Assembly: GCF_003991155.1 (NCBI RefSeq)
Contig: NZ_CP031293.1
Origin: Escherichia coli
GTDB taxonomy: Bacteria > Pseudomonadota > Gammaproteobacteria > Enterobacterales > Enterobacteriaceae
Strand: one strand, 5' to 3'
Length of the DNA stretch: 64,000 nt
Shown here: positions 3,074-33,292 of the stretch, one piece after another
Numbering within the stretch: the stretch's first letter is position 1
Layout of the letters: every line of letters begins with the position of its first letter
Notes under the pieces: model-generated
Seen by the model: the letters and a program-made list of their open reading frames with translations, nothing else
What the model was told of the DNA's origin: nothing
The model's database searches: none
Made by a program: the position numbers and the translations under genes

Positions 3074-3559
3074 ATGAAATACGATACTTCCGAGCTTTGT
3101 GACATCTATCAAGAAGATGTTAACGTCGTGGAACCGCTGTTCTCCAACTTTGGCGGACGGGCGTCGTTTGGCGGACAAATAATCACGGTAAAATGTTTCG
3201 AGGACAACGGGTTGCTGTACGATCTGCTCGAACAGAATGGCCGTGGTCGTGTTCTTGTCGTCGATGGCGGTGGTTCTGTTCGTCGCGCACTGGTCGATGC
3301 TGAACTGGCGCGTCTGGCAGTACAAAATGAATGGGAAGGTCTGGTCATTTACGGCGCGGTGCGTCAGGTAGATGACCTGGAAGAGCTGGATATCGGCATC
3401 CAGGCGATGGCGGCAATTCCGGTTGGTGCCGCTGGCGAAGGCATTGGCGAAAGCGATGTCCGCGTCAATTTTGGCGGTGTCACCTTCTTCTCCGGCGACC
3501 ATCTTTATGCCGACAATACCGGGATTATTCTTTCAGAAGATCCGCTGGATATTGAATAA
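3074..3559 (+). CDS. rraA: RNase E inhibitor RraA
   Basis: 161-aa [32 protein letters not shown]... Confidence 0.93.
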
Positions 3560-8127: not shown

Positions 8128-8135
8128 TAATGATT

Positions 8136-8171
8136 GCCTGATGCGACGCTTGCGCGTCTTATCAGGCCTAC
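8136..8171. repeat. REP element (gcctgatgcgacgc...cgtcttatcaggcctac)
   Basis: Canonical REP palindrome in the glpK-glpX spacer. Confidence 0.7.
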
Positions 8172-15043: not shown

Positions 15044-15208
15044 CGCCCGACTCTCTTATGTTGTGTTGTGATGAGCAAAGCGTGCCAGAAGGTTAACCAA
15101 ACATTAAAGAATAAAAAAAGATTGGCTATAACTTGCGGGTATATGTTGAGGGATTAAAAAGGCGGAAGAAATCCGCCTCATATTGCTGACAAAGTGCGCT
15201 TTGTCCAT

Positions 15209-15307
15209 GCCGGATGCGGCGCGAACGCCTTATCCGGCCTACAAAAGTTTGCAAATTCAATAAATTGCAGAATTCATGTAGGCCTGATAAGCGAAGCGCA
15301 TCAGGCA
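15209..15307. repeat. BIME: two inverted REP elements (gccggatgcggcg...ccggcctac / gtaggcctgataag...catcaggca)
   Basis: Canonical REP palindromes in the pfkA-sbp spacer. Confidence 0.7.
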
Positions 15308-15362
15308 TTTTTGCTTCTGTCATCGGTTTCAGGCTAAAGGAATCTGCCTTTTTCCGAAATCA

Positions 15363-20291: not shown

Positions 20292-21560
<1,269 letters not shown>

Positions 21561-21589
21561 CAACAGCGCCTGACGGCGCTGTGTCTGGC

Positions 21590-21650
<61 letters not shown>

Positions 21651-27559: not shown

Positions 27560-30432
<2,873 letters not shown>

Positions 30433-30437
30433 ACACT

Positions 30438-30655
30438 GCCGGATGCGGCACAAGTGCCTTATCCGGCCTACGGGTCGGCAATAGTTGTAGGCCTGATAAG
30501 ACGCGACAGCGTCGCATCAGGCATTGATTGCCGGATGCGGCACGAGCGCCATATCCGGCCTACGGGTCGGCAATAGTTGTAGGCCTGATAAGACGCGACA
30601 GCGTCGCATCAGGCATTGATTGCCGGATGCGGCACGAGTGCCTTATCCGGCCTAC
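30438..30655. repeat. Tandem REP/BIME array, ~2.4 copies of a 92-bp unit each containing two inverted REP palindromes
   Basis: gccggatgcggcac...ccggcctacgggtcggcaatagttgtaggcctgataagacgcgacagcgtcgcatcaggcattgatt repeated with period 92 nt (copies start 30438, 30530, 30622). Confidence 0.8.
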
Positions 30656-30708
30656 AGATCGTACATCCGGCAACAGGCACGGACGTCCAATTAACAGGAA
30701 CACAGAAC

Positions 30709-31533
30709 ATGCAAAACATTACCCAGTCCTGGTTTGTCCAGGGAATGATCAAAGCCACCACCGACGCCTGGCTGAAAGGCTGGGACGAGCGCAATGGTGG
30801 TAACCTGACGCTGCGCCTGGATGACGCCGATATCGCGCCTTATCACGGCAACTTTCATGCACAACCGCGCTATATCCCGCTCAGCCAGCCCATGCCTTTA
30901 CTGGCAAATACACCGTTTATTGTCACCGGCTCCGGCAAATTCTTCCGTAACGTCCAGCTTGATCCTGCGGCTAACTTAGGCGTCGTAAAAGTCGACAGCG
31001 ACGGCGCGGGCTACCATATTCTCTGGGGGTTAACCAACGAAGCCGTCCCGACATCCGAACTTCCGGCTCACTTTCTCTCTCATTGCGAGCGCATTAAAGC
31101 CACCAACGGTAAAGATCGGGTGATCATGCACTGCCATGCCACCAACCTGATCGCCCTTACCTACGTACTGGAAAACGACACCGCGGTCTTCACTCGCCAA
31201 CTGTGGGAAGGCAGCACCGAATGTCTGGTAGTGTTCCCGGATGGCGTCGGCATTTTGCCGTGGATGGTGCCCGGCACGGACGAAATCGGCCAGGCGACCG
31301 CACAGGAAATGCAAAAACATTCGCTGGTGTTGTGGCCCTTCCACGGCGTCTTCGGCAGCGGTCCGACACTGGATGAAACATTCGGTTTAATCGACACCGC
31401 AGAAAAATCAGCACAAGTATTAGTGAAGGTTTATTCGATGGGCGGCATGAAACAGACCATCAGTCGTGAAGAGCTGATAGCACTCGGCCAGCGTTTCGGC
31501 GTTACACCACTTGCCAGTGCGCTGGCGCTGTAA
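30709..31533 (+). CDS. rhaD: Rhamnulose-1-phosphate aldolase
   Basis: ORF track 30616..31533 trimmed to [39 protein letters not shown] (274 aa); the upstream extension lies inside the REP array. Confidence 0.95.
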
Positions 31534-31542
31534 GGAGCAAAT

Positions 31543-31857
31543 ATGATCCGCAAAGCCTTTGTCATGCAGGTTAACCCCGACGCCCACGAAGAGTATCAGC
31601 GTCGGCATAATCCCATCTGGCCGGAACTGGAAGCAGTGTTGAAATCTCACGGTGCACATAACTACGCCATTTACCTCGACAAAGCGCGTAATCTGCTGTT
31701 TGCCACGGTAGAGATTGAATCTGAAGAACGGTGGAATGCGGTAGCCAGTACTGATGTTTGCCAACGTTGGTGGAAATATATGACCGACGTTATGCCAGCT
31801 AACCCGGATAACAGCCCAGTCAGTAGCGAGCTGCATGAAGTGTTTTACCTGCCTTAA
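31543..31857 (+). CDS. rhaM: L-rhamnose mutarotase
   Basis: 104-aa [49 protein letters not shown]. Confidence 0.93.
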
Positions 31858-31897
31858 TGAGTTGCGGTGCCGGAAAATATCCAGCACCGCGCCTTCA

Positions 31898-33292
31898 TCA
31901 GAAGAAGTATTTAAAGCGAACGCGTGCGCCGTAACGGTCATCAGTATCATCACCGTGTTTTTTATCACCGTCGCTATCCAGAATGGAGTAATACGTCCCG
32001 AGGTAAATATTAAAGTTCTCCATATCCATCACATTAGCGAACTGATAAGACGCATGAATGGTGTGAATGGTGTACGTCCCTTCATCATCAATCCAGCAGT
32101 CGTTATCACAAACTACACCGCTGAATTCATCAATCTTATTGTGCGCGTAGATATAACCCAGCTCGAAACGTTTCCACAGCGCGTTAATCCCGGCAGTGAA
32201 ATCTTTCTCATTATTAGCATCTAAATAGGCGGTATTAAGATTAACCACGACGCCATTTTCCGGATCCGTTTTCAGGCCATTCCAGGTCATGCTCATACCA
32301 TAGCCGGTACGATCGGACTGATCGACAAAATTACCCTTGCTATCGGTATAACCATAAGCATTATTTACCACGTTCGCTTCCATCGCTGCGGAAACGGTGA
32401 ATTCTTCTGTCGGCGACCAGGCAATTACCGGACGCAGATAAGCAACATTTTTCTGCTGCTCCATATCGCGTCCATGATAATTACCGTCATTATATAAAGA
32501 TGTTCCGTCTTCAAGTAACGTGTTTAATTCAAAATACCAGTTATCAAGTTGTTTGCTGACGAGGAAATTACCGCCAGCGTTAGAACGCCCGCGGCCCTCT
32601 TTCATCATATAGATATAACCGCTGCCATCGTCATAAAGATCGTTCGCAGTATTACCGGAATGTTCAACAAAGGTATCCTGATTCAGCGGGAACATATCGT
32701 AGGCTTCAAAACGGCCTACTTTGACCTTCCAGTCGTTTTCTTTGCCAAAGAAGAAAACCGCATCATCGATATTTACTGAACCGTGCATATCCCCCAGCGG
32801 TTGTGCGGAGAACCCGGCGAAATAGCCATTATCCAGTTTTCGCATACCATCAAAACCTAACAAAATACGACCATTGAGATTCCACTGTTCATTAGTGGGA
32901 TCGCTATTCACATCAGCGTTGGTCATTGCCAGCAGGCCATGATTACTTTCCGCATCCATATTAAATTCTACGTCGCCGTAGATTTTTAAATCGCCATAAC
33001 CTGAGAGCAAAAGATTAGGTGAGGTGGAATTTTTCTTTGCAGATTCCGCCGTTGCCTGTCCATTTACCGGCGTATTGCCCTGGGCAGCCTTAATTTCGCG
33101 GATCTCAGCGGCTTGTTGTGTCTGCAGCTGTTTAACCTGGCTCTCTGCTTTTGCTGCCCGCATTTCTGCCGCTTCCAGGCGTTCTTCCAGCAATGCCATG
33201 CGTTGTTCCAGCGTTAAATGCTGTGTTTTTGCCATTCCGGTACTACATGCCAATAATAAACCGATGGCTAAAGATAATGTCGATTTTTTCAT
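31898..33292 (-). CDS. Putative outer-membrane carbohydrate-selective porin (LamB/ScrY-like) with signal peptide, N-terminal coiled coil and C-terminal aromatic residue; strain-specific
   Basis: 464-aa ORF MKKSTLSLAIGLLLACSTGMA..., coiled-coil LEQRMALLEERLEAAEMRAAKAESQVKQLQ, beta-rich body rich in Y/G/N/D, ends ...RFKYFF; family assignment by resemblance only. Confidence 0.5.
   Translation of the reverse strand: MKKSTLSLAIGLLLACSTGMAKTQHLTLEQRMALLEERLEAAEMRAAKAESQVKQLQTQQAAEIREIKAAQGNTPVNGQATAESAKKNSTSPNLLLSGYGDLKIYGDVEFNMDAESNHGLLAMTNADVNSDPTNEQWNLNGRILLGFDGMRKLDNGYFAGFSAQPLGDMHGSVNIDDAVFFFGKENDWKVKVGRFEAYDMFPLNQDTFVEHSGNTANDLYDDGSGYIYMMKEGRGRSNAGGNFLVSKQLDNWYFELNTLLEDGTSLYNDGNYHGRDMEQQKNVAYLRPVIAWSPTEEFTVSAAMEANVVNNAYGYTDSKGNFVDQSDRTGYGMSMTWNGLKTDPENGVVVNLNTAYLDANNEKDFTAGINALWKRFELGYIYAHNKIDEFSGVVCDNDCWIDDEGTYTIHTIHASYQFANVMDMENFNIYLGTYYSILDSDGDKKHGDDTDDRYGARVRFKYFF

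What the first reader, a model, noticed from the sequence alone, without database searches (positions are those of the whole stretch)
30438..30655. Tandemly amplified 92-bp REP/BIME unit between rhaA and rhaD
Seen in sequence: a 92-nt unit containing two inverted REP palindromes is repeated about 2.4 times with few substitutions (copies begin at 30438, 30530, 30622). The longest ORF for rhaD in the track begins inside this array; the true rhaD start is at 30709. This REP-dense spacer is the same kind of site the IS621-type element targets ~10 kb upstream, so the array is a candidate insertion hotspot.
Basis: seen in the sequence. Interest (0 to 1): 0.3.

Follow-up and report, generated by a model that had tools for sequence, protein, structure and literature searches.

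The report
Variable REP array between rhamnose genes
The repeat between rhaA and rhaD is an ordinary E. coli BIME-2 element (alternating Y and Z2 REP hairpins) whose copy number differs between strains and which is occasionally hit by the REP-seeking insertion sequence IS621; it is real and well explained, but not new.

Summary
Window 30437-30655 holds 2.4 copies of a 92-bp unit (96% match) in the 276-bp spacer between rhaA (stop 30430-30432) and rhaD (ATG 30709). The repeat is a canonical BIME-2: three Y-type REPs alternating with two inverted Z2-type REPs.

Across E. coli complete genomes the locus is a length ladder with 0 to 5 full units (82 to 542 bp). About 18% of sampled genomes share this window's two-unit state. 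K-12 has four units. About 17% carry an unrelated 160-bp palindromic element instead.

Each Z2 REP carries the exact natural IS621 target ATCAGGCCTAC, on the minus strand at 30487-30497 and 30579-30589. A complete IS621 sits 10 kb upstream (20368-21646), and its bridge-RNA guides are identical to the published wild type.

Seven of 5,426 genomes have IS621 inside this spacer, always at ATCAGGCCT|AC, from at least five independent events. One is in an allele identical to this window's. Occupancy is not exceptional: neighbouring REP sites score 0, 110 and 136 genomes.

Everything fits published knowledge of BIME-2 elements and IS621. A role in operon mRNA stability or attenuation is inferred by analogy only.

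The parts
29173..30432 (+). rhaA (L-rhamnose isomerase) CDS; stop codon TAA at 30430-30432
   Evidence: NCBIfam TIGR01748/NF002203 equivalog, E=1.8e-248. RefSeq homologues are annotated as 1260 bp.
30437..30655 (+). BIME-2 array as a whole: (Y - 15 nt - inverted Z2 - 6 nt) x2 + terminal Y; 92-bp period, 2.4 copies
   Evidence: TRF; REP typing; Rfam naRNA4 (REP325-derived) hits above gathering score at 30490-30560 and 30582-30652.
30437..30471 (+). Y-type REP no. 1 (TGCCGGATGCGGCACAAGTGCCTTATCCGGCCTAC); the stem begins 5 nt after the rhaA stop codon
   Evidence: 31/35 identical to the Y consensus; palindrome I3.
30472..30486 (+). 15-nt linker GGGTCGGCAATAGTT between the CTAC and GTAG feet
   Evidence: Identical in both units.
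30487..30522 (-). Z2-type REP no. 1 (inverted)
   Evidence: 35/37 identical to the Z2 consensus; palindrome I5.
30487..30497 (-). Exact natural IS621 target ATCAGGCCTAC (site 1)
   Evidence: IS621 is inserted at exactly this position in L014 (identical allele), L017 and L018.
30529..30563 (+). Y-type REP no. 2, with a chimeric upper stem (CAC..GCG)
   Evidence: 30/35 identical to the Y consensus.
30579..30614 (-). Z2-type REP no. 2 (inverted)
   Evidence: 35/37 identical to the Z2 consensus.
30579..30589 (-). Exact natural IS621 target ATCAGGCCTAC (site 2)
   Evidence: The equivalent second Z2 is occupied by IS621 in L016 and L020.
30621..30655 (+). Y-type REP no. 3 (terminal; the only REP present in zero-unit alleles)
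   Evidence: 30/35 identical to the Y consensus; retained in all 14 alleles read.
30656..30708 (+). Unique 3' part of the spacer with the rhaD ribosome-binding region (AGGA about 10 nt before the ATG). It includes a partial inverted Y arm, CATCCGGCAA, at 30664-30673.
   Evidence: inverted repeat I8. There are two haplotypes differing by a 10-bp indel. The region is unpaired in the MFE fold.
30709..31533 (+). rhaD (rhamnulose-1-phosphate aldolase) CDS; true start at ATG 30709
   Evidence: NF002963 residues 1-273 of 274, E=2.6e-143; RefSeq annotation of an identical allele.
20368..21646 (+). Resident IS621 (1279 bp), inserted in a Z2-type REP downstream of cpxA at ATCAGGCCT|AC. Bridge RNA at 20383-20559; transposase at 20560-21540.
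   Evidence: The bridge RNA is 173/177 identical to the published wild type, with identical guides. The same site is occupied in 136 genomes.

Best explanation
The feature is a BIME-2 element, the well-known E. coli class of repetitive extragenic DNA made of alternating Y and inverted Z2 REP hairpins. It lies inside the rhaBAD(M) transcription unit, between rhaA and rhaD.

Shown here:
- The order is Y-Z2-Y-Z2-Y with a 92-bp period.
- The locus is a copy-number polymorphism in the species, with 0-5 Y-Z2 units in front of an always-present Y REP.
- Each Z2 REP carries the exact 11-nt natural target of IS621.
- IS621 has inserted precisely there several independent times.

Inferred:
- Units are gained and lost by recombination or slippage between the 92-bp direct repeats, or by the REP-associated transposase TnpA(REP), as proposed for BIME-2 elements in general.
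- On the rhaBAD mRNA the array folds into very stable hairpins. By analogy with REP325 in yjdMN and with classic REP studies, these would protect the upstream rhaBA message from 3' exonucleases and partly attenuate read-through into rhaD.
- Because the first hairpin starts 5 nt after the rhaA stop codon, it may also dampen rhaA translation termination (Liang et al. 2015, as cited in PMC12306157).
For: Structure: TRF array, palindromes, Y typing at 30-31/35 and Z2 typing at 35/37, and Rfam naRNA4/REP325 model hits at 74.4 and 70.8 bits against a gathering score of 59.5.

Polymorphism: 14 alleles read base by base form a 92-bp ladder of 82, 92, 174, 266, 276, 358, 365, 450, 460 and 542 bp. Two evenly spaced samples of 60 genomes each give n=0 24%, n=1 18%, n=2 18%, n=3 5%, n=4 20% and an alternative 241-bp allele 15%. 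Unit-specific variants are duplicated in neighbouring units (for example L013 and L010), which fits local tandem duplication.

Known class: Ton-Hoang et al. 2012 (PMC3333891) define BIME-2 as y plus z2 REPs in multiple tandem copies whose number at a given locus varies between strains.

IS621: the target ATCAGGCCTAC is documented in Durrant et al. 2024 and occurs as two exact minus-strand copies in the array. Seven genomes have a 1279-bp IS621 at ATCAGGCCT|AC in this spacer, at three positions and in four array alleles. None is in the 39% of genomes whose alleles lack the motif (P about 0.03 for 7 genomes, 0.08 for 5 events). A natural target in Durrant's Supplementary Data 2 (seq801) is a 50/50 match to both Z2 sites.

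RNA: the spacer folds at -134.7 kcal/mol, z = -8.9, with no intrinsic terminator or sigma-70 promoter pattern. REP325 acts as a partial Rho-dependent attenuator and an upstream stabiliser (bioRxiv 10.64898/2026.03.23.713779).
Against: No expression data were available, so the mRNA-level role is purely by analogy. The same preprint stresses that REP effects are context-dependent and that terminal REPs do not uniformly lengthen half-lives.

Alleles with 0 to 5 units, and an allele with a completely different element, all coexist at appreciable frequency. This argues that the number of units is under weak selection at most.

Nothing shows which mechanism (RecA-dependent unequal exchange, slippage or TnpA(REP)) changes the copy number.

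The hotspot idea in the strong sense is not supported: occupancy is 7 genomes, against 110 and 136 at two single-REP sites nearby.
Confidence: 0.9

Rival explanations
1. The array is a selfish or neutral repeat with no function for the rha operon. It is tolerated in an intercistronic gap, and its copy number drifts by slippage or unequal recombination.
For: All copy numbers from 0 to 5 occur at 5-24% frequency, and about 17% of genomes have replaced the units with an unrelated 160-bp palindromic element. rhaD is intact and the operon is otherwise conserved in all of them. Chimeric hairpins such as Y no. 2 (CAC..GCG with an A.C mismatch) look like recombination products rather than selected structures.
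Against: The first and terminal Y REP, 5 nt after the rhaA stop, is retained in every allele read, including the 241-bp allele. REP-containing tandem gene pairs show an upstream-biased expression ratio genome-wide. This rival concerns function only; it does not dispute what the element is.
Confidence: 0.4
2. The array encodes naRNA4-like small RNAs that act with HU in nucleoid organisation.
For: Rfam RF02564 (naRNA4) matches above the gathering score on the minus strand at 30490-30560 and 30582-30652.
Against: The Rfam model is built from a Y-Z2 REP pair of REP325, so any BIME-2 unit will match it. The hit identifies a sequence family, not a gene. The best hits are antisense to the only known transcript (rhaBAD), and no promoter-like site was found on either strand. 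A 2026 study reports that REP325 and naRNA4 do not measurably compact the chromosome.
Confidence: 0.05
3. The array is a preferred (hot) IS621 insertion site, used more often than expected from its number of targets, because tandem targets or cruciform extrusion attract the recombinase.
For: There were at least five independent insertions at one locus. Insertions fall in alleles roughly in proportion to their number of targets (4 of 7 in four-unit alleles). An intact IS621 with cognate guides lies 10 kb away in this very strain.
Against: Only 7 of 5,426 genomes (0.13%), out of roughly 13,000 IS621 copies in the collection, are at this locus. E. coli has at least 129 exact target sites that IS621 uses experimentally, so a 1-3% share would be expected by target number alone. 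Two single-REP sites nearby are occupied in 110 and 136 genomes. Counts of genomes are not counts of events, so the comparison is imperfect in both directions.
Confidence: 0.12
4. The repeat is an assembly or chance artefact.
For: None.
Against: The identical 276-bp spacer is present in independent complete genomes. The 92-bp ladder is seen in thousands of assemblies. TRF gives 96% match over 219 bp.
Confidence: 0.01

Closest known systems
BIME-2 (bacterial interspersed mosaic element, family 2) of E. coli (Gilson/Bachellier nomenclature; Ton-Hoang et al. 2012, PMC3333891)
   Same: Y and Z2 REPs in alternating orientation, short linkers, several tandem copies, well-conserved copies within a locus, and a copy number that differs between strains. 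All of these features were tested and met here.
   Different: Nothing of substance. This is the K-12 rhaA-rhaD BIME-2 in a two-unit state; K-12 has four units.
REP325 / naRNA4 array in the yjdM-yjdN operon
   Same: It is also a BIME-2 tandem array lying between two co-transcribed genes. The Rfam model built from it matches the rha units above threshold. It is reported to stabilise the upstream mRNA and to attenuate transcription into the downstream gene in a partly Rho-dependent way.
   Different: It is a different locus with different linkers. The best Rfam hits at rha are on the strand antisense to the operon. No expression data exist here for rha.
IS621 natural target sites in REPs (Choi et al. 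2003; Durrant et al. 2024, PMC11208160)
   Same: The exact 11-nt target ATCAGGCCTAC with a CT core lies in Z-type REPs. Natural insertions here have the canonical junctions, and a 50-nt natural target in the published data set matches this array exactly.
   Different: The Y REPs of the array read ATCCGGCCTAC (C at position 4), and no insertion was seen in them. The only Y that was hit is a K-12-type variant that has mutated to ATCAGGCCTAC.
malE-malF intercistronic REPs (Newbury et al. 1987; cited from my own knowledge and from the reference list seen)
   Same: REP hairpins between genes of a sugar-utilisation operon, proposed to protect upstream mRNA and create differential expression within the operon.
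   Different: That effect was measured for mal. For rha it is only inferred.

Membership tests
BIME-2 | Built from Y-type and Z2-type REPs (not Z1) | tested here: met
   REP-A is 30-31/35 identical to the Y consensus. REP-B is 35/37 identical to Z2 in a full-length alignment, whereas the Z1 consensus is 7 nt shorter and aligns only with gaps (alignment score 16 against 33).
BIME-2 | REPs alternate in orientation (REP / inverted REP) with a conserved GTAG/CTAC foot | tested here: met
   The Y REPs end in CTAC on the + strand, and the Z2 REPs start with GTAG on the + strand.
BIME-2 | Short linkers and multiple tandem copies (unlike single-copy BIME-1, which has a long IHF-binding L linker) | tested here: met
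   Linkers of 15 nt and 6 nt; 2.4 tandem copies. For contrast, a BIME-1-like pair with a 34-nt AT-rich linker lies at about 15207-15310.
BIME-2 | The number of tandem copies at a locus varies between strains | tested here: met
   0 to 5 units in 14 sequenced alleles and in 120 sampled genomes.
BIME-2 | Bound and cleaved by DNA gyrase in vivo (Espeli & Boccard 1997) | not testable with these tools
   Requires experiment.
Rfam RF02564 naRNA4 | Covariance-model score at or above the gathering threshold | tested here: met
   74.4 and 70.8 bits against 59.5, on the minus strand. The + strand scores 53.9 and 48.7, below threshold.
Rfam RF02564 naRNA4 | Expressed as a discrete small RNA that binds HU | not testable with these tools
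   No promoter-like site was found. The functional claim for the family itself is disputed.
IS621 target site | 11-nt ATCAGGCCTAC (or ATCGGGCCTAC) with a CT core | tested here: met
   Two exact minus-strand matches, at 30487-30497 and 30579-30589.
IS621 target site | Actually used by the element in nature | tested here: met
   Seven genomes with junctions ...ATCAGGCCT|IS|AC..., one of them in an allele identical to the window's.
IS621 insertion hotspot (used more than other targets) | Occupancy or event rate above that of comparable exact-target sites | tested here: not met
   7 genomes here against 0, 110 and 136 at three other exact-target sites of the window. Event-level rates could not be computed.
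Translation-modulating REPs (Liang, Rudd & Deutscher 2015) | REP hairpin begins within 15 nt of the upstream stop codon | tested here: met
   TAA at 30430-30432 and the stem from 30437/30438, which leaves 4-5 nt between them. The same holds in all alleles. The rule is quoted from PMC12306157.
Translation-modulating REPs (Liang, Rudd & Deutscher 2015) | Ribosome stalling / tmRNA-dependent reduction of the upstream protein | not testable with these tools
   Requires experiment. The original paper was not available to check whether rhaA is listed.

The most novel reading that the evidence does not exclude
The copy number of this BIME-2 array acts as a heritable dial on the rhaBA:rhaD(M) expression ratio. 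Longer alleles both shift that ratio and offer more IS621 targets, so they suffer more operon-splitting insertions. Those insertions recur (at least 5 events) but never spread beyond 1-2 genomes each, because separating rhaD from its promoter is selected against.
Probability: 0.15. Interest if true: 0.4.

Novelty: already known. Interest (0 to 1): 0.15.

Why it matters
It matters little for discovery, because each component is textbook or recently published: BIME-2 structure and polymorphism, REP targeting by IS621, and REP effects on operon mRNA.

It has some practical value:
- It warns annotators that the longest ORF for rhaD is wrong.
- It gives a clean multi-allelic VNTR (0-5 units plus an alternative allele) that could serve for strain typing.
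- It offers a natural allelic series for testing how the number of REP units tunes expression within an operon.
- It shows that a strain carrying an active-looking IS621 has two cognate targets inside a catabolic operon 10 kb away, and that this exact insertion has happened in a strain whose rhaA and spacer are identical to this window's.

Tried and rejected
1. Queries that included the array itself gave unreliable joins for long alleles, because BLAST pieces repeated the same part of the query. I replaced them with flanks-only synthetic queries.

2. Durrant et al. Supplementary Table 3 opened on oligo-library sheets, and the genome insertion list was not reached. Gene-name searches in the supplements only hit protein strings. 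So I could not rank the rha site among the 173 experimental insertion sites. I did find a matching natural target (seq801).

3. Choi 2003, Bachellier 1997, Liang 2015 and Liang & Deutscher 2016 are not held. Their content is cited second-hand or from my own knowledge.

4. A literature search for a paper dealing specifically with the rhaA-rhaD REPs found none.

5. The promoter and terminator scan of 30200-30900 found nothing. I therefore rejected an internal rhaD promoter or an intrinsic terminator in the array.

6. I considered and rejected the small-RNA-gene reading of the Rfam naRNA4 hits (see the rival explanations).

7. The short ORFs inside the array (for example 30454-30576 and 30528-30803) are by-products of the repeat and were not pursued.

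8. I could not list the roughly 9 genomes whose spacer is 0.8-1.8 kb but not due to IS621, nor the 7 or fewer with larger splits. The tool shows only the top or evenly spaced rows.

9. Rfam gave no family for the alternative 160-bp element.

Full report
**Observation**

Tandem Repeats Finder reports a single array at window 30437-30655 with period 92, 2.4 copies, 96% matches and no indels.

The array fills most of the 276-bp gap between rhaA and rhaD. rhaA is an NCBIfam equivalog with its stop TAA at 30430-30432. rhaD is the ORF from ATG 30709, which aligns to residues 1-273 of the 274-residue model. rhaB lies upstream and rhaM downstream.

The longest ORF in the rhaD frame starts at a TTG inside the array (30616). 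RefSeq annotation of a strain with the identical spacer uses the ATG equivalent to 30709.

**Anatomy**

Each 92-bp unit contains two imperfect palindromes in opposite orientation. I aligned them to the three E. coli REP consensus sequences quoted in Durrant et al..
- The plus-strand REPs (30437-30471, 30529-30563, 30621-30655) are Y type, 30-31 of 35 identical.
- The inverted REPs (30487-30522, 30579-30614) are Z2 type, 35 of 37 identical.
- The linkers are 15 nt (GGGTCGGCAATAGTT, between the CTAC and GTAG feet) and 6 nt (ATTGAT).

The order is therefore Y-Z2-Y-Z2-Y. This is the definition of a BIME-2: y and z2 REPs, short linkers and multiple tandem copies (Ton-Hoang et al. 2012).

Rfam's naRNA4 model was built from the BIME-2 array REP325. 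It matches two Y-Z2 pairs above its gathering score (74.4 and 70.8 bits against 59.5). I read this as family recognition of the repeat, not as evidence of a small-RNA gene.

**Polymorphism**

I read 14 alleles of the spacer base by base. They form a ladder of 82/92, 174, 266/276, 358/365, 450/460 and 542 bp. That is 0, 1, 2, 3, 4 and 5 Y-Z2 units in front of a Y REP that is always present. A 10-bp indel in the unique 3' part accounts for the paired lengths.

This window has two units and K-12 has four. Two flanks-only searches each listed 60 genomes taken at even steps through about 5,400 hits. Combined, they give:

| Allele | Share of sampled genomes |
|---|---|
| 0 units | 24% |
| 1 unit | 18% |
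| 2 units | 18% |
| 3 units | 5% |
| 4 units | 20% |
| Alternative 241-bp allele | 15% |

In the 241-bp allele the first Y REP is followed by an unrelated palindromic element of about 160 bp. That element is full-length in 942 of 5,426 genomes and otherwise present only as short fragments.

Neighbouring units often share private variants, for example in L010 and L013. This is what local tandem duplication would produce. The literature already states that the number of BIME-2 copies at a locus varies between strains.

**IS621**

It carries an IS110-family RNA-guided transposase and lies in a Z2-type REP downstream of cpxA, with junctions ...ATCAGGCCT|IS|AC....

Its bridge-RNA region (20383-20559) is 173/177 identical to the published wild type, and the target guides are identical. 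The natural IS621 target is ATCAGGCCTAC (Durrant et al. 2024).

Both Z2 REPs of the array carry this 11-mer exactly, on the minus strand at 30487-30497 and 30579-30589. The three Y REPs read ATCCGGCCTAC.

To test whether the site is used, I searched with a chimeric query: the rhaA 3' end plus both IS621 ends. Seven genomes have IS621 directly downstream of rhaA. All seven were fetched, and in each a 1279-bp IS621 sits exactly at ATCAGGCCT|AC.
- Three are in the first Z2, in a two-unit allele and in two different one-unit alleles.
- Two are in the second Z2 of four-unit alleles.
- Two are in the opposite orientation, in a K-12-type fourth Y REP that has mutated to ATCAGGCCTAC.
- None is at an ATCCGGCCTAC site.

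Position and allele define at least five independent events. Two strains with identical rhaA carry the IS at different sites. In strain WP2-W18-ESBL-08 the rhaA gene and the spacer, once the IS is removed, are identical to this window.

No insertion lies in the 39% of genomes whose alleles lack the motif. The probability of that is about 0.03 for seven genomes and 0.08 for five events.

A 50-nt natural target in Durrant's Supplementary Data 2 (seq801) is an exact match to both Z2 sites. Other BIME-2 loci match this array at only 84-88% identity, so that record very probably comes from this locus.

**Is it a hotspot?**

As a baseline I counted IS621 occupancy, in the orientation the target dictates, at three other exact-target sites in the window.

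| Site | Genomes occupied |
|---|---|
| Z2 REP after glpK (8161) | 0 |
| Z1 REP of a BIME-1-like pair after sbp (15278) | 110 |
| cpxA site occupied in this window | 136 |
| rha array | 7 |

The collection holds roughly 13,000 IS621 copies, and E. coli offers at least 129 exact sites that IS621 uses experimentally. The rha array is thus a genuine, recurrently used target, but nothing shows it is used more than its number of targets predicts.

The rha insertions are all singletons or pairs. This could mean they are recent, or that they are mildly deleterious because they split rhaD from the rhaB promoter. That is inference.

Widening the permitted gap from 800 to about 1,800 bp joins 16 more genomes. 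Seven of these are the IS621 cases, and about nine other insertions remain unidentified.

**How it most likely works**

Shown: the spacer RNA, in the sense of the operon, folds at -134.7 kcal/mol (z = -8.9 against shuffles). There is no intrinsic-terminator or sigma-70 promoter pattern. The rhaD ribosome-binding region is left unpaired. The first hairpin begins 5 nt after the rhaA stop codon in every allele.

Inferred by analogy:
- REP325, a BIME-2 array between co-transcribed yjdM and yjdN, stabilises the upstream mRNA and attenuates transcription into the downstream gene in a partly Rho-dependent way. Genome-wide, REP-separated tandem gene pairs show upstream-biased expression.
- REPs within 15 nt of a stop codon are reported to stall ribosomes and lower expression of the upstream gene (Liang et al. 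2015, as cited).

The array would then raise the rhaBA level relative to rhaD and rhaM, perhaps in a copy-number-dependent manner. Against a strong functional role, all copy numbers and a wholly different element coexist at high frequency. The neutral-repeat view therefore remains a serious rival for function, although not for identity.

**Comparison and novelty**

All defining features of BIME-2 that can be tested in sequence are met. The IS621 target definition is met and natural use is demonstrated. The stronger hotspot criterion was tested and not met.

The K-12 version of this array, BIME-2 polymorphism, REP targeting by IS621 and REP effects on operon mRNA are all already described. I therefore rate the finding as already known and of low interest. 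It is a tidy worked example and a useful annotation caveat.

Noticed in passing
window 20368-21646: A complete IS621 (1279 bp) lies in a Z2-type REP downstream of cpxA. Its bridge-RNA region (20383-20559) is 173/177 identical to the published wild type, with identical target guides. The same site is occupied in 136 of 5,426 E. coli genomes.
   Followed up: yes
L003:2046-2205 (allele of window 30472-30655): About 17% of E. coli genomes (942 of 5,426) have a 241-bp rhaA-rhaD spacer. In it the Y-Z2 units are replaced by a GC-rich palindromic element of about 160 bp (47-nt arms, CCCTCACCCC...GGGGAGAGGGTTAGGGTGAGGGG). Only 55-60-bp fragments of it occur elsewhere (median 3 places per genome). It matches no Rfam family and has no IS621 target. 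It may be related to box C repeats, but I did not establish this.
   Followed up: partly
L002:2979-4127 (between the equivalents of window 31533 and 31543): O111:H8 and related strains carry an extra gene, annotated as fucO (lactaldehyde reductase), inserted between rhaD and rhaM. It would complete the rhamnose pathway (lactaldehyde to propanediol) within the operon.
   Followed up: no
window 31898-33292 (minus strand): The carbohydrate porin gene downstream of rhaM is present in this strain but absent from about half of E. coli genomes. Only 2,642 of 5,425 cover at least 80% of window 28433-32708, and many alignments stop at query position 3426.
   Followed up: no
window 15207-15310: A BIME-1-like pair lies downstream of sbp: a Y REP, a 34-nt AT-rich linker resembling an IHF site, and an inverted Z1 REP. 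The Z1 carries an exact IS621 target (15278-15288, minus strand), and IS621 occupies this site in 110 genomes.
   Followed up: partly
window 8134-8171: A single Z2-type REP lies just after glpK and carries an exact IS621 target (8161-8171, plus strand). No genome of 5,425 has IS621 there in the expected orientation, so exact-target sites differ widely in natural occupancy.
   Followed up: partly
window 30529-30563: The second Y REP has a chimeric upper stem: a CAC left arm with a GCG right arm, giving an A.C mismatch. It combines the two hairpin variants (CACAAGTG and CGCGAGCG) seen in other units and strains. This looks like recombination with a breakpoint in the hairpin loop.
   Followed up: no
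window 30656-30708: The unique 3' part of the spacer exists in two haplotypes that differ by a 10-bp indel and several substitutions. The window's form contains CATCCGGCAA (30664-30673), complementary to the start of the last Y REP (30620-30629). It may be a remnant of a further inverted REP.
   Followed up: no
rhaA-rhaD spacer in other genomes: About 9 genomes have a 0.8-1.8-kb spacer that is not explained by IS621, and up to 7 more have the two genes further apart or rearranged. I could not list or identify them with the available output. BW25113 appears among the partial hits, showing only rhaD and rhaM.
   Followed up: no
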